Assembly: GCF_053078305.1 (NCBI RefSeq)
Contig: NZ_CP166879.1
Reading direction: 5' to 3' (one strand)
DNA length: 64,000 bases
A program made the translations under genes and the position numbers. The notes under the pieces were generated by a model. That model saw only the letters and a program-made list of their open reading frames with translations. It made no database searches and was not told the origin of the DNA. This document shows, piece by piece, positions 15,071 through 47,961 of the stretch (within the stretch, counting starts at the first letter, position 1; every line of letters starts with the position of its first letter).

Positions 15071-15500
15071 TATTGCTGTCGTCTGGGATCAGGGTTGTGG
15101 TTCCCTGCAACTGAACGGCGCAGATCTTCTGACGGATAACAGCCTGCTGACTGCGGTCATTATTTCACTGTTTACGGACAGGCGGGCGCTGGATTCCGAT
15201 GAAATCCCTGACGGCACCCGTGACCGTCGGGGATGGTGGGGAGACAGTTTCCGGGAGCGCCCCATTGGCTCCCGTCTCTGGCTGTTAAGCCGTGAAAAGA
15301 CGCTGTCCTCCGTGGTCAGCCGTGCACAGGCCTATGCTGATGAAGCGCTGGCGTGGCTGCATAAAAGCGGTGCTGCCACATCCGTGGTATGTCATGCCAT
15401 GCGTGTGGGGCATGATCGCCTTTCGCTTTCCGTGAAAATCACCCTGCCGGACGGAAGCAGACATCCGATGATTTTTTATGCTGATATGAAGGGGGAATGA
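15063..15500 (+). CDS. baseplate protein (Mu gp46-like)
   Basis: ATG at 15063 (MADIAVVWDQ...) overlaps the gp45 stop. The 71-codon N-terminal extension in the ORF track overlaps gp45 and is unlikely to be real. Confidence 0.7.
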   Translation: MADIAVVWDQGCGSLQLNGADLLTDNSLLTAVIISLFTDRRALDSDEIPDGTRDRRGWWGDSFRERPIGSRLWLLSREKTLSSVVSRAQAYADEALAWLHKSGAATSVVCHAMRVGHDRLSLSVKITLPDGSRHPMIFYADMKGE

Positions 15501-16582
15501 TGCCTTATCAGCCCTTACCACTGGCGCAACTGATCACACAGACACAACAGGATATCAGCCAGCGCCTGCCCGGTTCGCAGCCGGGCGTGAATGAAACCAC
15601 CCTGAATGCCATTGCGTATGCACTGGCGGGTCTGTCAGCACAGGAGCATGAACATCTGGCCTGGATCTCCCGGCAGATAATTCCGACAGAAGCTGATGAA
15701 GCCGAACTCCTGAAACACTGCGCATTCTGGGGTGTCATCCGTAAACCGGCTTCCCGCGCTGACGGACCGGTACAACTGATGCTGACCACGGATGCAGGGA
15801 TCACGGAAGGCGTACTCCTTCAGCGAAGCGATGGTGTTGTGTACCGCATCACCGGCTCTGCGACCGGAAAAGCCGGAACACTGAATGTTAATGTGGAGGC
15901 GGAAAGTGCGGGGCGCGCTGGAAATACCCCGACCGGAACCCGCCTGTCCTTTATCACGCCACAGGCGGGCATCAACCAGACAGCCACGGTCACCGGCACG
16001 GGACTCACCGGTGGTGCGGATGTGGAAACGGTGCCGGAGTTGCTGTCCAGGCTGGTATTCCGGGTACAGAACCCGCCATCAGGGGGAACACAGTATGATT
16101 TTGAACGCTGGGCACGGGAAGTACCGGGCGTGACGCGGGCATGGTGTAAGCCTGAATGGCCTGAGGCGGGTAGTGTTGGTGTGACTTTTGTTCAGGATAA
16201 TAACCCTGACATTTTCCCCGGAGAAGGTGATGTGAAGCGGGTGGCGGATTATATCCGCAGTCATGATGATCCGGCGACGGGCCAGCCCGTTGGTCAGCCA
16301 CTTGGGCCGACAATCAGCGTGTTTAAGCTGACCAATAAGTCGGTGGCGTTTGAGATCAGGATTGTACCCAAAACGCCGGAAAATCAGGCTGCCGTAAAAC
16401 AGGCATTAACGGACCTGCTTTATAACGAATCGCGGCCGGGTGGACTTGTATTGCCTTCATCATTCTGGCGGGCTGTTGCAGGGGTGAAAGGACTGGAGGA
16501 TTTTGAAGTTCGCAGTCCGCTGAAGTCCGTGATGGCCGGAGATACAGAGTTGCTGACCGTGGGGGAAATCACATGGCTGTAA
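15497..16582 (+). CDS. baseplate J-like protein (Mu gp47-like)
   Basis: 361 aa, ATGA-coupled; baseplate J position and size. Confidence 0.8.
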   Translation: MMPYQPLPLAQLITQTQQDISQRLPGSQPGVNETTLNAIAYALAGLSAQEHEHLAWISRQIIPTEADEAELLKHCAFWGVIRKPASRADGPVQLMLTTDAGITEGVLLQRSDGVVYRITGSATGKAGTLNVNVEAESAGRAGNTPTGTRLSFITPQAGINQTATVTGTGLTGGADVETVPELLSRLVFRVQNPPSGGTQYDFERWAREVPGVTRAWCKPEWPEAGSVGVTFVQDNNPDIFPGEGDVKRVADYIRSHDDPATGQPVGQPLGPTISVFKLTNKSVAFEIRIVPKTPENQAAVKQALTDLLYNESRPGGLVLPSSFWRAVAGVKGLEDFEVRSPLKSVMAGDTELLTVGEITWL

Positions 16583-30046: not shown

Positions 30047-30790
30047 ATGACACAGACTGAATCAGCGATTCTGGCGCATGCCCGGCGGTGTGCGCCAGCG
30101 GAGTCGTGCGGCTTCGTGATAAGCACCCCGGAGGGCGAACGGTACCAGCCCTGCGTGAATATCTCCGCAGAGCCGGAGGCGTATTTTCGTATTGCACCGG
30201 AAGACTGGCTGCGGGCAGATATGCAGGGGGAGATTGTGGCGCTGGTCCACAGTCATCCCGGTGGTCTGCCCTGGCTGAGCGAGGCGGACCGGCGGCTGCA
30301 GATAAAGAGTGCCCTGCCCTGGTGGCTGGTCTGCCGGGGCGACATTCACCGGTTCCGCTGTGTGCCGCACCTGACCGGACGGCGCTTTGAACACGGTGTG
30401 ACGGACTGTTACAGCCTGTTCCGGGATGCATACCATCTGGCGGGGATAACGCTGCCGGATTTTGTGCGTGAGGATGACTGGTGGCGCAACGGCCAGAACC
30501 TGTACCTGGACAACCTGGCGGACAACGGCTTTTACCGGGTGTCTCCGTCCTGTGCACAGGCGGGCGATATCCTGCTGTGCTGCTTTGGTTCATCGGTGCC
30601 GAATCATGCCGCCATTTACTGTGGCAACGGTGAACTGCTTCACCATATACCTGAACAACTGAGTAAACGGGAGAGGTATTCTGAAAAATGGCAACGACGA
30701 ACGCATTCTGTCTGGCGTCACCGCCACTGGTCCGTATCTGCCTTCACGGGGATTTACAACGATTTGGTCGCCGCATCAGCCTGTATGTGA
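30047..30790 (+). CDS. K: tail tip assembly protein K (NlpC/P60 + JAB-like)
   Basis: MTQTESAILAHARRCAPAESCGFV... is identical in pattern to lambda gpK. The track ORF start at 29786 is an upstream artefact overlapping L. Confidence 0.9.
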   Translation: MTQTESAILAHARRCAPAESCGFVISTPEGERYQPCVNISAEPEAYFRIAPEDWLRADMQGEIVALVHSHPGGLPWLSEADRRLQIKSALPWWLVCRGDIHRFRCVPHLTGRRFEHGVTDCYSLFRDAYHLAGITLPDFVREDDWWRNGQNLYLDNLADNGFYRVSPSCAQAGDILLCCFGSSVPNHAAIYCGNGELLHHIPEQLSKRERYSEKWQRRTHSVWRHRHWSVSAFTGIYNDLVAASACM

Positions 30791-31368
30791 ACACGGCAGC
30801 GGAGGCCATACGTGCCCTGTCACTGCAGGTGCCGGGATTCCGCGGTCAGATGAACGAAGGCTGGTACCGGATACGTATTGCCGGTGAGGATACCGCGCCG
30901 GAGGCGGTGTATGCCCGTCTTCACGAACAACTGGGTGAGGGAGCGGTCATCCACATTGTACCGCGACTGGCCGGAGCCGGGGGAAATGGTGTTTTTCAGG
31001 TGGTGCTGGGGGCAGCAGCCATCGTGGGCTCTTTCTTCACAGCCGGTGCAACGATGGCGTTGTGGGGCGCAGCCCTGAGTGCCGGAGGGCTGACTGCCAC
31101 CACGATGCTGTTCTCACTGGGTGCCAGCATGATACTGGGTGGTGTGGCTCAGATGCTGGCCCCGAAGGCAAAGACGCCGGAGTACAAAAGTACGGATAAC
31201 GGTAAACAGAACACGTATTTTTCGTCACTGGACAACATGATTGCCCAGGGTAACCCGATGCCGGTACCTTACGGTGAAATGCTGGTTGGTTCACGACGGA
31301 TATCCCAGGACATTAGCACCCGTGATGAGGGCGGAGACGGGAAAGTGGTGGTTATCGGACGGGGATAA
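30688..31368 (+). CDS. I: tail tip assembly protein I
   Basis: 226 aa. ...ICLHGDLQRFGRRISL...DNGKQNTYFSSLDNM... matches lambda gpI. Overlaps the K 3' end as in lambda. Confidence 0.9.
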   Translation: MATTNAFCLASPPLVRICLHGDLQRFGRRISLYVNTAAEAIRALSLQVPGFRGQMNEGWYRIRIAGEDTAPEAVYARLHEQLGEGAVIHIVPRLAGAGGNGVFQVVLGAAAIVGSFFTAGATMALWGAALSAGGLTATTMLFSLGASMILGGVAQMLAPKAKTPEYKSTDNGKQNTYFSSLDNMIAQGNPMPVPYGEMLVGSRRISQDISTRDEGGDGKVVVIGRG

Positions 31369-31370
31369 AA

Positions 31371-31406
31371 ATAAAAAAATCCCGCAGAGTTAGTGGAGCT
31401 GCGGGA
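31371..31406 (-). terminator. minus-strand rho-independent terminator in the I-J spacer
   Basis: Minus strand reads UCCCGCAG-11 nt loop-CUGCGGGA, followed by UUUUUUUAUUUUU. Confidence 0.65.
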
Positions 31407-31535
31407 AATAACGATGAAGATTAATGTTATGGAGTTATTTTTTTGGGCAGAAAAACAGTAACGCAGCGTCATTATAGCGGCTACAGGCAATTGCCGGAAA
31501 TGTGAAGAATTTCAGAAATTTTATTCCGTCATGAC

Positions 31536-31566
31536 ACAGGCACCCTCCGGGGTGCCTGTTGTTTTT
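31536..31566 (+). terminator. plus-strand rho-independent terminator immediately upstream of J
   Basis: 10-bp stem ACAGGCACCC/GGGTGCCTGT, loop TCCG, then TGTTTTT. Confidence 0.7.
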
Positions 31567-31609
31567 GGGCATAAACAGATTCAGACATCAGACAGGAGAG
31601 GGGGACAGA

Positions 31610-34600
31610 GTGGGTAAAGGGGGCGGCAAGGGGCACACACCGCGTGAGGCGAAGGACAATCTCAAATCCACGCAGATGATGAGCGTGATTGATGCCATTG
31701 GTGAGGGACCGGTGGAAGGTCCGGTGAAGGGACTGCAGAGTATTCTGGTGAACAAAACCCCGCTGACGGACACGGACGGTAATCCCGTGATACACGGTGT
31801 GACCGCCGTCTGGCGCGCCGGGGAGCAGGAGCAGACACCGCCGGAAGGCTTTGAGTCCTCCGGGGCAGAAACCGCACTGGGCGTGGAGGTGACGAAGGCA
31901 AAGCCGGTGACGCGCACCATCACGTCAGCGAACATTGACCGTCTGCGGGTCACCTTCGGGGTGCAGTCACTGGTGGAGACCACCTCAAAGGGTGACCGTA
32001 ATCCCTCTTCTGTCCGCCTGCTGATTCAGCTTGAGCGTAACGGGCACTGGGTGACGGAGAAGGATATCACCATTAACGGCAAGACCACCTCGCAGTACCT
32101 GACGTCTGTGATTCTGAATAATCTCCCTGAGCGCCCCTTTAACATCCGGATGGTCAGGGAGACGGCGGACAGCACCACGGACCAGCTGCAGAACAGAACG
32201 CTGTGGTCGTCATACACCGAAATCATCGATGTGAAACAGTGCTACCCGAACACGGCCATTGTGGGGCTGCAGGTGGATGCGGAGCAGTTTGGTGGCCAGC
32301 AGCTGACGGTGAACTACCATATCCGTGGTCGCATCATTCAGGTGCCGTCAAACTATGACCCGGAAAAACGCACCTACAGCGGTATCTGGGACGGGAGTCT
32401 GAAACCGGCATACAGCAATAACCCGGCCTGGTGCCTGTGGGACATGCTGACCCACCCGCGCTACGGCATGGGAAAACGCCTGGGGGCCGCGGATGTGGAC
32501 AAGTGGGCACTGTATGCCATCGGGCAGTACTGCGACCAGACGGTCCCGGATGGTTTCGGGGGAACAGAGCCGCGGATGACTTTCAATGCGTACCTGTCAC
32601 AGCAGCGTAAGGTGTGGGATGTCCTGGGGGATTTCTGCTCGGCGATGCGCTGTATGCCGGTATGGAACGGCCAGACGCTGACGTTCGTTCAGGACCGTCC
32701 GTCGGATGTGGTGTGGCCGTACACCAACAGCGATGTGGTGGTGGATGATAACGGCGTGGGGTTCCGCTACAGCTTCAGTGCCCTGAAGGACCGGCACACG
32801 GCGGTGGAGGTGAATTACACCGACCCGCAGAACGGCTGGCAGACCTCCACGGAACTGGTGGAAGACCCGGACGCCATCCTGCGCTACGGACGCAACCTGC
32901 TGAAGATGGATGCGTTTGGCTGTACCAGCCGCGGTCAGGCCCACCGTGCCGGACTGTGGGTGATAAAGACCGAACTGCTGGAAACGCAGACGGTGGATTT
33001 CACGCTCGGGTCACAGGGGCTGCGGCATACGCCCGGTGACATCATTGAAATCTGTGATAACGACTATGCCGGGACCCTGACCGGCGGACGCATCCTGTCC
33101 ATTGATGCCGCCAGCCGCACACTGACGCTGGACCGTGAGGTGACACTGCCGGAAGCAGGGACATCGACGGTGAACCTGATTAACGGCAGCGGTAAGCCGG
33201 TGCGCGTGGACATCACTGCACACCCCGCGCCGGACCGGATACAGGTCAGCGCCCTGCCGGATGGCGTGGAGACATACGGTGTGTGGGGACTCTCCCTGCC
33301 GTCACTGCGTCGTCGCCTGTTCCGCTGTGTTTCCATCCGGGAAAACACGGACGGCACTTTTGCCATCACGGCAGTGCAGCACGTACCGGAAAAAGAAGCC
33401 ATTGTGGATAACGGGGCTCGCTTTGAGCCGCTGTCCGGTTCACTGAACAGCGTTATCCCGCCGGCAGTGCAGCACCTCACGGTGGAGGTGAGTGCCTCAG
33501 ACGGCCAGTATCTGGCGCTGGCGAAATGGGACACGCCGCGGGTGGTGAAGGGCGTGCGCTTCAGTCTGCGCCTGACCAGCGGAAACGGTGAAAACAGCCG
33601 CCTGGTGACCACCGCCATCACTGCCGACACGGAGCACCGTTTCAGTGGCCTGCCTCTGGGGGAATACACCCTGACGGTCAGGGCGATAAACAGCTACGGC
33701 CAGCAGGGCGAACCTGCCACCACCGCGTTCCGGATTAATGCGCCTGCAGCACCGGCCAGCATTGAGCTGACGCCGGGGTATTATCAGATAACAGCAGTAC
33801 CGGTGCTGGCGGTGTATGACCCGACGGTACAGTTTGAGTTCTGGTTCTCGGAGGCAAAAATCGCAGACACATCTCAGGTGGAAACCTCTGCCCGTTATCT
33901 GGGGACAGGCAGCCAGTGGAGCGTCTCCGGCCCGCACATCAAGCCGGGGAAGGATTTCTGGTTTTATGTGCGCAGCGTTAACCTGGTGGGGAAATCTGCG
34001 TTTGTGGAAGCCAGTGGCCGGGCGAGCAATGATGCAGAAGGGTATCTGGGGCTGTTTCGGGAAAAGATAGGAAAACTGCATCTGGCACAGGGGATGTGGG
34101 AGCTGATTGATAACAGCCAGCTTGACAATGAGATGGCGGAGATGAAGACCACCATCACCGAAACCCGCAATGAAATCACGCAGACGGTCAGTAAAACCCT
34201 GGAAGACCAGAGCGCCACCATACAGCAGATACAGCGGGTGCAGACAGACACAAATAACGACCTGGCTGCGCTGTACATGCTGAAGGTGCAGAAAACAAAA
34301 AACGGCATTCCGTATGTTGCCGGTATAGGTGCGGGGATTGAGGATGCTGATGGCCAGCCCCTGAGCAATATTCTGCTGCAGGCGGACCGTATCGCGATGA
34401 TTAACCCGGAGAACGGCAACACCACGCCGCTGTTTGTGGCGCAGGGGAATCAGCTGTTCATGAACGATGTGTTCCTGAAGCGGTTGTTTGCAGTGAGCAT
34501 CACCTCGTCCGGCAATCCCCCGACGTTTTCCCTGACGCCGGACGGGAAACTGACGGCCCGCAATGCTGATATCAGCGGACATATCAGTGCGAACTCGGGC

Positions 34601-35077
34601 ACGCTGAATAATGTCGTGATAGCGGAGAACTGTACGATAAATGGCACGCTGAAAGCGGAGAACATTATTGGTGATCTTGTGAAATGTGCAGGGGTGGCTT
34701 TTCCGGTGGATGGTAGTTACCTTGCGAACGGTACACGAACGCTGACGGTATATGACGATCACAGCTTTGACCGGCAGATTATAATCCCGCCGATAATCTA
34801 TGTCGGGTCAAAACAGGAATCCCGTACCAGTAATGACATCTGGACAGAGTGCTTCCTGCATGTTGATCAGAACGGACGCCGGATTTATTCAGGCAGGTCA
34901 GTGACAGAGCCGGGAATTTTCAGCGGGATCATCGATATGCCAGCCGGAGGTGGTCATATCACCCTGAGTTTTACCGTAAGTTCACGACGTCAGAACGGGA
35001 GTTTTGGCAGTTCACGTATCAGTAACCTTCAGGCGATAGTGGTGAAGAAAAACAGCGCGGGGATCAGTATCCGCTGA
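31610..35077 (+). CDS. J: tail tip / host specificity protein J
   Basis: GTG at 31610 after [33 protein letters not shown]... matches lambda [22 protein letters not shown]. Collinear with lambda J for ~1000 aa; the last ~130 aa diverge. Confidence 0.92.
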
Positions 35078-35275
35078 ACATCGCGCCCCGGGATTGCCGG
35101 AAGGAGACAAAAACCGTACAGTATGCGCGGGTGCCTTTGGCTGATGGCCGGAGGGAACACCTGAAGGCCGGAAAGACGAAGGCCCCGGACAAACATTCAT
35201 GTTTAACCCGAGGCCTGACTTTCGATCTTCAGCAAATTGAAGGTTAGCGCCTCTCCGTAAAAGGAGCAAGCGTTT

Positions 35276-35416
35276 ATGTCGCAAAAACCGTTAAAAACCA
35301 CCGTGATTTGTACCACGGTAGTGCTCATTATCTGGATCACCCACACTTCACTGTGCGAGTTCCGGTTCCGGATAGCGGGCGCGGAGATTGCGGCGTTCTT
35401 ACAGTGTAAGCAGTAA
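35276..35416 (+). CDS. Hok/Gef-family type I toxin peptide (46 aa; below ORF-track cutoff)
   Basis: ATG at 35276 after AAGGAG. MSQKPLKTTVICTTVVLIIWITHTSLCEFRFRIAGAEIAAFLQCKQ has a TM helix, then the LCE(F/I/V)R...E(I/V)AAF signature of Hok/Gef/RelF peptides. Confidence 0.7.
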   Translation: MSQKPLKTTVICTTVVLIIWITHTSLCEFRFRIAGAEIAAFLQCKQ

Positions 35417-35558: not shown

Positions 35559-37292
35559 ATGACAGTCAGAATATCGGGTGTGCTGAAGGATGGTACGGGA
35601 AAAGCGGTACCGGGATGCACGATAGAGCTGAAAGCGCGCCGCACAACGGAGACGGTGATTGTCACCACGGTGGCGTATGGTCAGCCGGGGGAAACCGGCA
35701 GTTACAGTATGGATGTTGAGCCGGGGTTGTACCGGGTGACGCTGAACACGGAAGGGTACGCGCCGTCATATGTGGGTGACATTCTGGTGAAGGCGGATTC
35801 TGCACCGGGAACGCTGAATAAATTTCTGATGGACCTGGAAGACGCACAGTATTACCCGAAAGCCCTTGCAGAGCTGGAAGCGGTGGCAGCGGAAATCCTG
35901 AAGCGTGCAGAAGCGTCAGCGGCCAGTGCAGAGGAAGCGAAGAAACGGGCAGAGAATGCGCGGGGACCGAAGGGGGATAAGGGAGACACCGGGCCACAGG
36001 GGATTCCCGGGCCAAAAGGCGATACCGGCGAGCGGGGGCCAAAGGGTGAGCGTGGTGAGACAGGGCCACAGGGGCTTCAGGGTGTGAAAGGTGAACGGGG
36101 AGAGAAGGGCGAAAAAGGCGAGCCGGGAGGGCCGGATGCGACGACGGCACAGAAGGGAATTGTGCAGTTAAGCAGCGCAACGGACAGTGATGATGAAACG
36201 AAGGCAGCCACGCCGAAAGCGGTGAAAGCGGCAATGGACAAAGCGGACGGATGCCTGGAGAAAGCGAAAAACGGTGACGATATCCCGGATAAGGTGAAGT
36301 TTCTGAACACCGTGGGAGCAGCCAGAGTATACGGGCGGGACATTCATACGGGGGCCGGTGAATGGACCACGAGTGAGTTTGTCGCCTGGCTGAAAGAAAA
36401 AGGGGCATTTGACCAGCCTTACTGGATGATGAAGGCATCACTGCTTGCGTCAATGAATAAAGTCATCACAGATGTCGGACCGGGAAAACTCAATCTGGGT
36501 GGCTGTGTCATTGAGGTGATGGGAACGTATGAGGCTGCCATAGTCCGGGTCACCATTGGCGAATACGGTGCAACGGGGTTTATTAATGGCACGGTCTGTA
36601 CCTGTACGGTTTACGGCGACACACAGTATTTCCACTGGCGGGTGGATTACAGCACAAAAAACAAACCGGATACGGTCAGCCAGCGGGATGCCAGTACGAC
36701 GCAGAAAGGTGTGGTGCAGTTAAGCAGTGATACTGGCAGTAATGACGAAACAAAGGCAGCCACGCCGAAGGCCGTGAAGGCGGCAATGGATGTGGCAAAT
36801 GAAGCGAAAACAAAGGCAGAAGAGGCTGCAGCAGGAGGTGGTGTTCCCGGTCCGAAAGGAGAGAAAGGTGACCCCGGAGCACAGGGTCCGAAAGGTGAAA
36901 CGGGAGCAACAGGCCCCGCTGGTCCGCGGGGAGCGCAGGGACCGAAAGGGGAGAAAGGCGACCCCGGTCCCAGAGGTGAGCGTGGAGAAACCGGGCCGAT
37001 GGGGCCGCCGGGGGCATCAGGAGATGACGGGAAGAGTCGTGTCATGGGCTTCAGGCTGGGGAATCCGGTAACGTATGAGTTGCAGGAGGGGGACCATGGC
37101 TGGTCAGTTAATCTGGCTGATGGTTCAGTCATTACAGGGCTTTCGGGGAACACTCAGGGCGGCGTCAGCCGTGTTACAACGATTTACTACAGGCCGCTGC
37201 AGATGACGTTTGATGGCTCTCACTGGCGCACCGTTGGTGTTGGTGAGTATGTGTCGTCAGGAGCGCCGGGGCGTGAGTATTTTTCATTATAA
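35559..37292 (+). CDS. stf: side tail fibre (Stf-like) with two collagen-like G-X-Y tracts and duplicated fibre repeats
   Basis: N-terminus [28 protein letters not shown]... matches lambda Stf [31 protein letters not shown] runs at about 35941-36130 and 36840-37020. The repeat QKG(I/V)[21 protein letters not shown] occurs twice. Confidence 0.85.
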
Positions 37293-37333: not shown

Positions 37334-38005
37334 ATGCACATAAAGAATTTCAGACAATACACGCCGGAAAATCCGGATGTGCCGGGTGCGATGTACCTGA
37401 AATCAGAGGATGGTCAGGACTGGTATGAGTGTCAGTCGTTATTTTCAGCAGAGACGCTGAAGGTGGTTTATAACAGTGCCGGGGTCATTACCGGCATCAG
37501 CAGGGTGGCATCAGTTCTGTGGCCTGTGAATCAGAGTGTGGTGGAGGTGGCGGATACGGAAGAAAACCGCAAAGCTGACATCTCCGGGCGCTGGGGTTTT
37601 GACGGGGAGAAAATCACGGACCTGCTGACCGCGGAGAAAGCGCGAGGGATGAAGGGCGATGAAATTAACGCCTGGCGTAATGCGATGGAAGCGGCGAACT
37701 ACACGTTTGAGCACAATGGGCGTAAATGGGACTACGGGAAGTCAACGCAGACGCGTCTTGAGCCGTCGGTGGCGGCAGCGAAAGCGGGGAAACTGCCGGA
37801 GGCGTTTTTCTGGACGGATGCGGAAAACAATGATGTGCCGGTGACAGCAGACGAGCTTATTGCGCTGAGTGAAGCGGCAGAGCAGGCGATGTTTACCAAA
37901 GGGATGGAAATCCACGTCCGGCAGCGCACCATGAAGAAAGAGCTGGAAAAGCTGACCAGTGAGGATGAGATACTGGCATACAGGGTTGGCTGGGCACAGG
38001 AATAA
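37334..38005 (+). CDS. tfa: tail fibre assembly protein (Tfa family)
   Basis: 223 aa directly after stf. Tfa/U-family N-terminal motif (YLKSEDGQDWYECQSLF). Hairpin terminator at 38016-38039. Confidence 0.85.
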   Translation: MHIKNFRQYTPENPDVPGAMYLKSEDGQDWYECQSLFSAETLKVVYNSAGVITGISRVASVLWPVNQSVVEVADTEENRKADISGRWGFDGEKITDLLTAEKARGMKGDEINAWRNAMEAANYTFEHNGRKWDYGKSTQTRLEPSVAAAKAGKLPEAFFWTDAENNDVPVTADELIALSEAAEQAMFTKGMEIHVRQRTMKKELEKLTSEDEILAYRVGWAQE

Positions 38006-47655: not shown

Positions 47656-47689
47656 ACATTCATTGAGAAAACTGATGCTACTGTGTCAA

Positions 47690-47790
47690 CGATCCGTTAT
47701 CAGTGCAGGAAAATGCCTGTTAGCGTAAAAGCAAAACACAAATCTATCCATGCAAGCATTCACCGCCGGTTTACTGGCGGTTTTTTTTTT
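47690..47790 (+). ncRNA. mgrR: MgrR sRNA (PhoP-activated, Hfq-dependent); 5' end approximate
   Basis: Location between dgcZ and mgtS as in K-12. Upstream PhoP box. Terminator stem 47763-47780 followed by T10 (47781-47790). Confidence 0.55.
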
Positions 47791-47865
47791 CGCCGTCATA
47801 AAAATCAGGCCCCTTGTACACAACTGTAACAAGGGGCCGGTTAGGTGAGGGATTATCTCCGTTCA

Positions 47866-47961
47866 TTAGTCATCCCATTTGTGGCTGAAATACGCGGCCA
47901 GAAAACCAGAAAATAAAATTATTCCCAGTACGGCCATAAAAACATTCATATTACCCAGCAT
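47866..47961 (-). CDS. mgtS: 31-aa membrane peptide MgtS (YneM), below ORF-track cutoff
   Basis: Minus-strand translation MLGNMNVFMAVLGIILFSGFLAAYFSHKWDD is identical to MgtS as recalled. SD GGAGG lies upstream. Confidence 0.9.
   Translation of the reverse strand: MLGNMNVFMAVLGIILFSGFLAAYFSHKWDD

What the first reader, a model, noticed from the sequence alone, without database searches (positions are those of the whole stretch)
31369..31609. 240-bp structured insert between tail genes I and J: convergent terminators and a perfect -10, an sRNA-like cassette
As I recall, lambda I and J are separated by only a few tens of bp. Here the gap is 240 bp and holds three signals:
- a minus-strand intrinsic terminator (31406-31371; 8-bp GC-rich stem plus U7AU5);
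- a perfect minus-strand TATAAT (complement of 31471-31476) about 95 nt upstream of that terminator's U-tract, which predicts a ~90-nt minus-strand RNA (about 31464 to 31371);
- a strong plus-strand terminator (31536-31566) placed right before the J ribosome-binding site, inside an operon that must be read through by antiterminated late transcription.

The predicted RNA is fully antisense to a 15-codon plus-strand ORF (31414-31461, MKINVMELFFWAEKQ). The geometry recalls moron-encoded sRNAs or type I toxin-antitoxin pairs, but the peptide is not convincingly toxin-like.
Basis: partly seen in the sequence, partly recalled or inferred. Interest (0 to 1): 0.55.

Follow-up and report, generated by a model that had tools for sequence, protein, structure and literature searches.

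The report
Known prophage small RNA (PasB family)

Summary
The sequence features are all present at the stated coordinates. The I-J gap is 241 bp here and 60 bp in phage lambda.

The predicted minus-strand RNA is an allele of a sRNA family that has been validated by experiment:
- PasB of EPEC E2348/69 is 83 nt and Hfq-dependent. It was detected by Northern blot and RIL-seq and lies in the same I-J gap, antisense to the tail genes.
- EcOnc22/23/24 of EHEC Sakai prophages Sp15/Sp14/Sp11 are about 85 nt and were found by Hfq-CRAC and Northern blot. Their RNase E-CLASH read fragment is the exact reverse complement of the Sakai spacer.
- The window allele is 88% identical to EcOnc22 and 79% identical to PasB.

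Across 24 spacer variants, four parts are conserved while the RNA body, the terminator loop and the promoter spacer are hypervariable. The conserved parts are the terminator stem with its U-tract, an AUCUU/CUCC core, the -10 (nATnAT), and an upstream CRP-like box (TGTGA-N6-TCAGA) always 24 bp from the -10.

The 15-codon ORF is not conserved, so a type I toxin-antitoxin reading is rejected. The plus-strand hairpin before J has a counterpart in lambda and is not part of the insert.

Related phages carry 1-3 tandem sRNA units or a sodC gene at this junction.

Verdict: already known; low interest.

The parts
30688..31368 (+). Tail assembly gene I (left flank of the spacer)
   Evidence: ORF; Pfam Lambda_tail_I, 1.5e-15
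31373..31464 (-). Predicted primary transcript of the PasB/EcOnc22-24-family sRNA. It would be 92 nt if +1 lies 7 nt after the -10. The 5' end would be about 31449 (77 nt) if it matches the annotated PasB 5' end.
   Evidence: Identity: 88% to EcOnc22 and 79% to PasB. The homologous loci give RNAs of 83 nt and about 85 nt. The Hfq-CRAC peak of EcOnc22 maps to about 31390-31451 on the minus strand, after a coordinate shift of +135.
31373..31406 (-). Intrinsic terminator of the sRNA: stem 31405-31399 / 31387-31381 plus an outer U-A pair, 11-nt loop, U7 tract at 31379-31373
   Evidence: Fold. The stem and U-tract are invariant in 14 distinct variants while the loop is hypervariable. The PasB 3' end and Northern probe fall on this hairpin.
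31416..31436 (-). Conserved single-stranded core of the sRNA (AACUCC ... UUAAUCUUC). This is the candidate seed or Hfq-contact region.
   Evidence: Invariant columns A29 A30 C33 and A44-U48 in alignment A3; unpaired in the consensus fold; contained in the CLASH chimera fragment
31450..31464 (-). Conserved 5' block GCGUUACnGUUUUU, between the -10 and the annotated PasB 5' end
   Evidence: 84% mean identity, against 54-61% for neighbouring segments
31471..31476 (-). -10 hexamer TATAAT of the sRNA promoter
   Evidence: Present. Kept as nATnAT (TATAAT, AATAAT, TATCAT, GATAAT) in all but one variant (L087), within variable flanks. No good -35.
31498..31535 (.). Conserved upstream block containing a CRP-like box, TGTGA-N6-TCAGA, at 31501-31516. 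Its centre is about -44.5 from the predicted +1.
   Evidence: The box matches the consensus with 1 mismatch. The block has 93% mean identity. It sits exactly 24 bp from the -10 in every unit, including the three tandem units of L011. Variable sites fall in the N6 spacer.
31536..31566 (+). Plus-strand hairpin and intrinsic terminator just upstream of the J ribosome-binding site. It is ancestral to the junction and not part of the sRNA insert.
   Evidence: 98.6% of cells are paired, with one compensatory pair and wobbles valid only on the plus-strand RNA, but this is statistically weak. Lambda has an analogous hairpin.
31610..35077 (+). Tail tip gene J (right flank): GTG start, RBS AGGAGAGGGGGA at 31594-31605
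31414..31461 (+). 15-codon ORF (MKINVMELFFWAEKQ), judged not to be a gene
   Evidence: The start codon is ACG or ACA in three variant groups; length and frame change between variants (15, 31 or 39 aa); the peptide is not hydrophobic

Best explanation
The spacer carries a moron-type gene for an Hfq-dependent, base-pairing small RNA of the PasB/EcOnc22-24 family. It sits between tail genes I and J and is transcribed against the late operon.

Inferred from sequence:
- A promoter made of a conserved -10 (TATAAT) and a conserved upstream block (CRP-like or UP-like box), without a good -35, starts transcription near 31464.
- The RNA runs through a largely unstructured body of about 60 nt with a conserved CUCC...UAAUCUUC core and variable flanks.
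- It ends at the invariant hairpin plus U7, 5 nt from the I stop codon.

Shown in the literature for homologues:
- The RNA is about 83-85 nt, needs Hfq for stability and is bound by Hfq.
- It forms chimeras with cellular mRNAs and sRNAs in RIL-seq and CLASH.
- In EPEC it is more abundant in overnight static LB than in mid-log DMEM.

Inferred mechanism:
- In the lysogen, when the late operon is silent, it acts in trans on host or prophage mRNAs through its single-stranded core.
- Differences between alleles in the variable segments retune target choice.

The plus-strand hairpin before J is a separate feature of the junction, shared with lambda. It probably acts as a terminator or stabiliser for transcripts that are not antiterminated.
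For: - Same locus, strand and 3' end as PasB: NC_011601 1466343->1466261, between I (ends 1466255) and gpJ (starts 1466496). The Northern probe AATCCCGCAGTGATCGCGGAGCT is the terminator hairpin.
- EcOnc22/23/24 are Hfq-CRAC peaks in the I-J gaps of Sakai Sp15/Sp14/Sp11. Northern about 85 nt; destabilised in the hfq deletion.
- Their CLASH fragment GCCTGAAAAATAACTCCATAACGTTAATCTTCA is the exact reverse complement of the Sakai spacer and maps at NC_002695.2 2902852-2902884.
- The window spacer is 93.8% identical to VT1-Sakai. The transcript region is 88% identical to EcOnc22 and 79% to PasB.
- The spacer occurs in 799 of 5426 complete E. coli genomes (median 3 copies) and in 147 phage records, mostly Stx phages.
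- Conservation is a mosaic. Mean identity is 100% for the terminator 3' stem arm, 98% for the A-run plus 5' arm, 93% for the box and 84% for the 5' block. It is 54% for the loop, 54% for the variable body and 61% for the segment between the -10 and the box.
- The consensus fold contains only the terminator; the body is unpaired.
- PasB drops by log2 -6.8 without Hfq. It has 37 RIL-seq partners, with 258 chimeras in the activating condition and 1820 in the non-activating one.
Against: - No expression data exist for this window's allele, which differs from every described allele. The best match among complete E. coli genomes is 97.1%.
- No sigma-70 consensus promoter is detected because the -35 is poor.
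- The annotated PasB 5' end and the CLASH/CRAC fragment starts lie about 15 nt downstream of the promoter-predicted +1. Either the RNA is processed or the start is mis-assigned.
- The terminator stem shows no covariation, since it is invariant.
- No validated target or seed is published for PasB or EcOnc22-24. The CLASH chimeras with yjbJ (inside the coding sequence) and ECs5349 rest on 1-2 reads.
- The CRP-like box is centred near -44.5, which is not a canonical class I or class II position. At one mismatch, such a motif is expected about twice per window by chance.
Confidence: 0.85

Rival explanations
1. The main role of the RNA is in cis. Being fully complementary to the I-J intercistronic part of the late mRNA, it would pair with it during lytic growth. 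That would trigger RNase III cleavage or transcriptional interference and so set the I:J expression ratio or the timing of tail-tip synthesis.
For: - The gene lies inside the late operon on the opposite strand and is complementary to the late transcript over about 90 nt.
- Its position next to the I stop codon is kept in every spacer class, even where the promoter has been replaced by sodC.
- The pre-J hairpin could protect a J mRNA fragment after cleavage.
Against: - The duplex would cover neither the I coding sequence nor the J ribosome-binding site, which is more than 130 nt away.
- Lambda and the sodC-class phages make tails without an active copy.
- PasB and EcOnc22-24 are abundant in uninduced lysogens, bind Hfq and form chimeras with unlinked RNAs.
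- The body is hypervariable, which suits retargeting in trans better than a fixed cis role.
Confidence: 0.1
2. The cassette is a type I toxin-antitoxin pair or encodes a small protein on the plus strand. Candidates are the 15-codon ORF, the roughly 20-aa ORF at 31443-31505, or the 10-aa ORF over the box. The minus-strand RNA would be its antisense repressor.
For: - Plus-strand ORFs exist, some with a GGAG-like motif upstream.
- The antisense geometry resembles hok/sok, and a real hok/sok locus lies 3.5 kb downstream.
Against: - The start codon of the 15-codon ORF is ACG or ACA in three variant groups, and its length and frame differ (15, 31 or 39 aa).
- The KTVTQR-type ORF varies from 12 to 39 aa with different starts.
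- All five variable sites in the 10-aa ORF are non-synonymous and fall in the spacer or flank of the DNA box.
- The peptides are hydrophilic and have no membrane helix.
Confidence: 0.03
3. In this particular prophage the cassette is an inert relic. The two hairpins merely act as bidirectional transcription stops between I and J, and no functional RNA is made.
For: - The -35 is poor, no promoter is called, and a lone TATAAT is not significant.
- The allele is rare: 20 of 5426 genomes have a megablast match to the sRNA region, at best 97.1%.
- Promoterless remnants exist in the sodC class.
Against: Every element conserved in expressed homologues is intact here: the -10 is a perfect TATAAT, and the box, the 5' block, the core, the terminator stem and the U7 tract are all present. 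Sakai alleles with a weaker -10 (AATAAT) are expressed.
Confidence: 0.05

Closest known systems
PasB (pathogenicity-associated sRNA B) of EPEC E2348/69 prophage PP6. Sources: Pearl Mizrahi et al. 2021, Sci Adv, PMC8550237; Zhu, Shabalina & Storz 2026, bioRxiv 10.64898/2026.05.13.724894
   Same: - Same I-J intergenic slot (240 bp) and same antisense orientation.
- Same terminator stem plus U7 next to the I stop codon.
- Same -10, box and 5' block.
- 79% identity over the transcript.
   Different: - The window allele lacks 5+1 nt in the body and differs in the variable segments and the terminator loop.
- PasB is annotated as 83 nt, starting about 15 nt downstream of the +1 predicted here.
- Expression and Hfq dependence are shown for PasB only.
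EcOnc22 / EcOnc23 / EcOnc24 of EHEC O157:H7 Sakai prophages Sp15 (Stx1), Sp14 and Sp11. Sources: Tree et al. 2014, Mol Cell, PMC4104026; Waters et al. 2017, EMBO J, PMC5286369
   Same: - Same slot and strand.
- The spacer is 93.8% identical and the transcript 88% identical.
- About 85 nt, Hfq-bound.
   Different: - 11 differences, clustered in the 5' third. One lies in the core (CAUAACAUUAAUC here, CAUAACGUUAAUC in Sakai) and would break the yjbJ pairing seen by CLASH.
- The -10 is TATAAT here and AATAAT in Sakai.
- The papers held in this library do not link EcOnc22-24 to PasB.
AgvB/AsxR anti-sRNAs (Rfam RF02702, RF02703) and HnrS (EcOnc10-12), which are other multicopy sRNAs of EHEC lambdoid prophages
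   Same: They are short, Hfq-associated RNAs with intrinsic terminators. They are encoded at fixed moron slots of lambdoid prophages, are multicopy through poly-lysogeny, and combine conserved ends with variable target-recognition segments.
   Different: - Different slots: downstream of PR'/stx, and after Rz.
- No sequence or covariance-model similarity.
- Known targets (GcvB, FnrS, hha) exist for them but none for this family.
Protein-coding morons at tail-gene junctions, e.g. prophage sodC
   Same: Related phages carry a minus-strand Cu/Zn superoxide dismutase gene in the same I-J junction. It is inserted exactly upstream of the sRNA body.
   Different: Here the cargo is only an RNA gene.
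hok/sok type I toxin-antitoxin
   Same: A small antisense RNA opposite a short ORF. A genuine hok/sok locus lies at 35129-35416 in the same prophage.
   Different: There is no conserved toxin ORF in the I-J spacer and no Rfam sok hit there.

Membership tests
PasB / EcOnc22-24 prophage sRNA family | Encoded in the intergenic spacer between tail assembly gene I and tail tip gene J of a lambdoid prophage, antisense to the tail operon | tested here: met
   PasB lies between the tail assembly protein gene and gpJ. EcOnc22-24 lie between the host specificity and tail assembly genes of Sp15/14/11.
PasB / EcOnc22-24 prophage sRNA family | Nucleotide homology to the experimentally mapped RNAs | tested here: met
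   88% to EcOnc22 and 79% to PasB over the transcript. The whole spacer is 93.8% identical to VT1-Sakai. The CLASH read fragment aligns to the window with one core mismatch.
PasB / EcOnc22-24 prophage sRNA family | Rho-independent terminator CCCGCAG-loop-CUGCGGG-A-U7 forming the 3' end a few nt from the I stop codon | tested here: met
   The mapped PasB 3' end falls at the U7 tract, and the probe sequence lies on the hairpin.
PasB / EcOnc22-24 prophage sRNA family | Own promoter upstream (conserved -10 and upstream box) | tested here: inconclusive
   The -10 and the box are conserved and equally spaced in all units. No sigma-70 consensus promoter is called, and the mapped 5' ends of homologues lie about 15 nt downstream of the predicted +1.
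PasB / EcOnc22-24 prophage sRNA family | Expressed as a discrete RNA of about 83-85 nt, bound and stabilised by Hfq | not testable with these tools
   Shown only for homologues.
Type I toxin-antitoxin (hok/sok-like) | Conserved small hydrophobic toxin ORF opposite the antisense RNA | tested here: not met
   ORFs differ in start, frame and length between variants and are hydrophilic. There is no Rfam sok hit in the spacer.
AgvB / AsxR anti-sRNA families (Rfam RF02702, RF02703) | Match to the family covariance model | tested here: not met
   No hit in the spacer at E <= 1 or in the whole window at gathering score. The AgvB model does find AgvB1 in Sakai as a positive control.
HnrS (EcOnc10-12) | Located downstream of the Rz endopeptidase gene in the lysis region; 66 nt | tested here: not met
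   The EcOnc10-12 coordinates fall between Rz and the DNase gene of Sp9/10/12, not in the tail region.
CRP-activated promoter | Match to TGTGA-N6-TCACA | tested here: met
   TGTGAAGAATTTCAGA at 31501-31516 has 1 mismatch. Both half-sites are invariant across variants, and variation falls in the N6 spacer. The motif alone is not significant: 4 found against 2 expected.
CRP-activated promoter | Site centred at -41.5 (class II) or at -61.5/-71.5 and so on (class I) | tested here: not met
   The centre at 31508.5 is about -44.5 from the +1 predicted from the TATAAT, which is 3 bp off class II. This follows from the sequence.
CRP-activated promoter | Dependence on cAMP-CRP in vivo | not testable with these tools
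   Only indirect evidence. PasB is higher in overnight LB than in DMEM mid-log, whereas Spf is about 5-fold higher in DMEM; Spf being CRP-repressed is my own background knowledge, not taken from these papers.
Intrinsic (Rho-independent) terminator, plus strand, before J | G+C-rich hairpin followed by a U-tract, with pairing kept across homologues | tested here: met
   98.6% of cells are paired, with 1 compensatory pair and wobbles valid on the plus-strand RNA only. The shuffle control is not significant, at 128/500.

The most novel reading that the evidence does not exclude
The I-J junction of lambdoid prophages may be a modular expression slot for sRNAs. A fixed promoter module (-10 plus a CRP-like box at a fixed 24-bp distance) and a fixed terminator module would bracket a hypervariable body. 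Recombination would then swap target specificity, stack units in tandem (2-3 units in some phages), or replace the promoter with cargo such as sodC. The whole set would be switched on by carbon starvation or stationary phase through cAMP-CRP. Under this reading, PasB and EcOnc22-24 are alleles of one diversifying, nutrient-responsive family. That link is not made in the papers I could search.
Probability: 0.3. Interest if true: 0.45.

Novelty: already known. Interest (0 to 1): 0.22.

Why it matters
The element itself is not a discovery. The same antisense sRNA at the same junction was found by Hfq-CRAC in EHEC (2014) and by RIL-seq in EPEC (2021), and its distribution was surveyed in 2026.

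The second look still has practical value:
- This widespread RNA gene is present in about 15% of complete E. coli genomes, often in several copies, yet none of the genome or phage records listed by the searches annotates it and Rfam has no model for it.
- PasB and EcOnc22-24 are the same family.
- The regulatory block upstream suggests a testable link to catabolite or stationary-phase control.

No target is validated for this family. Its role in virulence-associated prophages is therefore still open, but that was already an open question.

Tried and rejected
- Rfam, on the spacer at E <= 1, on the whole window, and on PasB's own locus: no family covers this RNA. Absence from Rfam is therefore not evidence of novelty.
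- HnrS (EcOnc10-12) looked attractive because it also occurs in up to nine copies. Its coordinates fall after Rz, not in the tail region.
- AgvB/AsxR: there is no model hit.
- Taking the 2014 coordinates at face value placed the Hfq peak on the plus-strand hairpin. Calibration with AgvB1, with the geometry of the HnrS copies, and finally with the CLASH read sequence showed a +135 shift between genome versions. With that shift the peak falls on the predicted sRNA.
- Small-ORF and type I toxin-antitoxin readings are rejected.
- TTCACA in the box as a -35: there is no conserved -10 at 16-18 bp from it (sequence).
- A plus-strand promoter for a second, convergent sRNA ending at the plus-strand terminator: no credible -10/-35, and no Hfq peak on that strand is listed for Sakai.
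- Covariation support for either hairpin: none for the sRNA terminator, which is invariant, and weak for the plus-strand hairpin.
- TSS and Term-seq tables of Sy et al. 2020 are not held, so the 5' end could not be settled.
- The genome-contig scan for the box found only E. albertii plus probable contaminant contigs.

Full report
**What is in the sequence**

The window carries a lambda-like tail module.
- The ORF at 30688-31368 (+) is a tail assembly protein I (Pfam Lambda_tail_I).
- The ORF starting with GTG at 31610 and ending at 35077 is a tip attachment protein J with the full set of J domains.
- The gap between them is 241 bp. In phage lambda the gap is 60 bp, since I ends at 15444 and J starts at 15505.

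- Minus-strand hairpin: CCCGCAG/CUGCGGG plus an outer U-A pair, with an 11-nt loop, followed by U7-A-U5. It ends 5 nt from the I stop codon. The simple scan did not list it because its loop limit is 8 nt.
- Minus-strand TATAAT at 31476-31471.
- Plus-strand hairpin at 31536-31559 with UGUUUUU: 10 pairs, -25.9 kcal/mol, z = -4.4.

Taken singly, these signals are weak evidence. TATAAT occurs 16 times in the window against 18.5 expected. No full sigma-70 promoter is called because the -35 is poor.

**Identification**

BLAST shows that the spacer is not a private feature.
- It occurs in 147 phage records, mostly Stx-converting phages. Enterobacteria phage VT1-Sakai is 93.8% identical.
- It occurs in 799 of 5426 complete E. 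coli genomes, with a median of 3 and up to 9 copies per genome.
- None of the records listed in the search outputs annotates an RNA gene there. Two phage entries annotate a hypothetical protein.
- Rfam has no matching family.

The literature does cover it.

EcOnc22-24 in EHEC Sakai:
- Tree et al. 2014 (PMC4104026, Table S2) list three homologous Hfq-CRAC peaks: EcOnc22 (Sp15, the Stx1 phage), EcOnc23 (Sp14) and EcOnc24 (Sp11). A Northern band of about 85 nt was destabilised in the hfq deletion.
- Their coordinates refer to an older Sakai genome version. I first calibrated the offset with AgvB1, located by its Rfam model, and with the mirrored geometry of the three HnrS copies.
- The RNase E-CLASH table of Waters et al. 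(PMC5286369) then gave the actual read fragment for EcOnc22/23/24: GCCTGAAAAATAACTCCATAACGTTAATCTTCA.
- That string is the exact reverse complement of the I-J spacer of Sp15. It maps at NC_002695.2 2902852-2902884 (+), a shift of +135, opposite the tail operon, which is on the minus strand there.
- In window coordinates the Hfq peak covers about 31390-31451 on the minus strand.

PasB in EPEC E2348/69:
- Table S6 of Pearl Mizrahi et al. 2021 (PMC8550237) gives PasB as NC_011601 minus strand 1466343->1466261, 83 nt, in prophage PP6. The Northern probe is AATCCCGCAGTGATCGCGGAGCT.
- That interval lies in the 240-bp gap between the tail assembly protein gene (ends 1466255) and gpJ (starts 1466496).
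- The probe is the terminator hairpin of this family, and the PasB 3' end is the U7 tract.
- PasB falls by log2 -6.8 without Hfq. It has 37 RIL-seq partners, with 258 chimeric fragments in the activating condition and 1820 in the non-activating one.
- It is more abundant in overnight static LB than in mid-log DMEM.

Comparison with the window and state of the literature:
- Over the predicted transcript, the window allele is 88% identical to EcOnc22 and 79% to PasB.
- The closest alleles in complete E. coli genomes are 97.1% identical.
- A 2026 preprint (Zhu, Shabalina & Storz) surveys the distribution of PasB and notes that it is embedded in an operon of phage structural genes.
- Neither that paper nor the 2021 paper links PasB to EcOnc22-24. 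A 2021 review lists the EcOnc22-24 targets as unknown.

**Anatomy from comparison**

I fetched 80 IMG/VR loci through the I protein, extracted the I-J spacers and aligned the 24 distinct spacers of about 240 bp.

The spacer is a mosaic of conserved and hypervariable blocks:

| Segment | Mean pairwise identity |
|---|---|
| Terminator stem, 3' arm | 100% |
| A-run plus terminator stem, 5' arm | 98% |
| Upstream block 31498-31535 | 93% |
| Plus-strand hairpin | 93% |
| 5' block GCGUUACnGUUUUU | 84% |
| Terminator loop | 54% |
| Middle of the RNA body | 54% |
| Segment between the -10 and the box | 61% |
| First 300 nt of J, for comparison | 93% |

Other points from the alignments:
- Within the body, only AA..C (part of AACUCC) and AUCUU (in UUAAUCUUC) are invariant.
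- RNAalifold predicts only the terminator. The body is single-stranded and no covariation is available.
- The -10 is kept as nATnAT in all but one variant (L087): TATAAT, AATAAT, TATCAT or GATAAT.

The upstream block contains TGTGA-N6-TCAGA (31501-31516), one mismatch from the CRP core consensus.
- Its half-sites never vary, and the variable positions fall in the N6 spacer.
- As a result, all substitutions in the overlapping 10-codon ORF are non-synonymous, which points to a constraint on the DNA rather than on a protein.
- The box lies exactly 24 bp from the -10 in every unit.
- Its centre is about -44.5 from the predicted start, so it is not at a canonical CRP position. At this stringency the motif is expected about twice per window by chance.
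- I therefore call it CRP-like, or possibly UP-like. The higher PasB level in glucose-free stationary culture, where Spf is lower (Spf being repressed by CRP is my own background knowledge), is compatible with CRP or stationary-phase control. It does not prove either.

**The junction as a cargo slot**

Spacer lengths fall into classes:

| Spacer length | Content | Loci |
|---|---|---|
| about 240 bp | one sRNA unit | 43 (including the window and the three Sakai loci) |
| about 342 bp | one unit plus a different right arm with a bidirectional terminator | 20 |
| about 424 bp | two units | 3 |
| 715 bp | three complete tandem units, each with terminator, body, 5' block, -10 and box (L011) | 1 |
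| about 851 bp | minus-strand Cu/Zn superoxide dismutase gene (Pfam Sod_Cu) | 14 |

- In the sodC class, the gene replaces the promoter. The breakpoint is at the first bases of the sRNA, so a promoterless sRNA body and terminator remain next to I.
- The window's closest E. coli relatives carry the two-unit form.

**The plus-strand hairpin**

- Pairing is kept in 98.6% of cells across seven variants.
- There is one compensatory C-G to U-A change, and four G-U wobbles that would be A-C mismatches on the other strand. This favours a plus-strand RNA element.
- The shuffle control is not significant, at 128/500.
- Lambda's 60-bp gap also consists largely of a hairpin (AAACCGCC-UGCG-GGCGGUUU, -16.5 kcal/mol) followed by UGUCAUUU, just before the J ribosome-binding site.
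- A hairpin before J is therefore a feature of the junction itself. The insert relative to lambda is the sRNA unit of about 180 bp.
- Its role is inferred, not shown. It could stop transcripts that are not antiterminated, or stabilise the flanking mRNA segments.

**Rejected readings**

- The 15-codon ORF has ACG or ACA in place of ATG in three variant groups. A 1-nt indel turns it into 39 codons in Sakai.
- Other short ORFs change start, frame and length, and none is hydrophobic. A type I toxin-antitoxin pair or a small protein is therefore unlikely.
- A genuine hok/sok locus does exist 3.5 kb downstream (Rfam sok at 35129-35287; Hok/gef ORF at 35276-35416).
- HnrS and AgvB/AsxR are different RNAs at other slots.

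**Open points**

- The 5' end. The promoter predicts +1 near 31464, giving 92 nt here, about 91 nt in Sakai and about 98 nt in E2348/69. The annotated PasB 5' end and the CLASH/CRAC fragment starts correspond to about 31449-31448, giving 77 nt here and 83 nt in PasB. The Sakai Northern estimate of about 85 nt lies between the two. The conserved 5' block argues that this segment is transcribed and perhaps then processed.
- Targets. The CLASH chimeras are with yjbJ, at codons 45-57 of 69, and with ECs5349. They rest on 1-2 reads. The window allele has a G-to-A change inside that pairing segment.

**Verdict**

- The element is an allele of an already described and experimentally validated sRNA family, so novelty and interest are low.
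- The useful by-products are these:
  - the equivalence of PasB and EcOnc22-24;
  - the conserved promoter box;
  - the tandem and sodC-linked forms;
  - the lack of any annotation or Rfam model for this RNA.

Noticed in passing
window 35129-35416 (+): A hok/sok-type toxin-antitoxin locus lies immediately downstream of J. There is an Rfam sok (CssrC) hit at 35129-35287 (63.5 bits) and a 46-aa Hok/gef-family ORF at 35276-35416 (Pfam 7.4e-10).
   Followed up: partly
window 47657-47872 (+): Strong Rfam hit to the Hfq-binding sRNA STnc560 (276 bits).
   Followed up: no
L011 spacer (715 bp); L010, L012 and L014 spacers (421-425 bp): Tandem arrays of two or three antisense sRNA units lie between I and J. 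The extra unit has a different terminator (CUCCCG...CGGGAG plus a U-tract) and a different body. In L011 all three units keep their own 5' block, -10 and CRP-like box. No Rfam match. The window's closest E. coli relatives (e.g. NZ_CP035498, NZ_CP148318) carry the two-unit form.
   Followed up: partly
L026, L045 and 12 other loci (spacers of 848-851 bp): A minus-strand Cu/Zn superoxide dismutase (sodC) gene occupies the I-J junction. It replaces the sRNA promoter, with the breakpoint at the first bases of the sRNA. The sRNA body and terminator would then lie downstream of sodC and could act as a 3'UTR.
   Followed up: partly
L091 (lambda NC_001416 15445-15504): Lambda's own 60-bp I-J gap is mostly a G+C-rich hairpin followed by a U-rich stretch, just upstream of the J ribosome-binding site. 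The simple terminator scan does not call it.
   Followed up: partly
L093, L094, L097 (genome contigs): Short contigs in assemblies labelled Asaia platycodi, Parendozoicomonas haliclonae and Streptomyces flavalbus are 84-96% identical to this E. coli prophage I-J region. They are probably contamination.
   Followed up: partly
Sakai coordinates in PMC4104026 Table S2 and PMC5286369 Table EV7: The published EcOnc coordinates are offset by +135 to +137 bp relative to the current RefSeq record NC_002695.2, at least between 1.78 and 2.90 Mb. Taken at face value, they put EcOnc22 on the wrong hairpin.
   Followed up: yes
window 35559-37292 (+): The side tail fibre gene has collagen triple-helix repeats and phage tail fibre repeats (Pfam). 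It is followed by a DUF4376/tail fibre assembly-like gene at 37334-38005.
   Followed up: no
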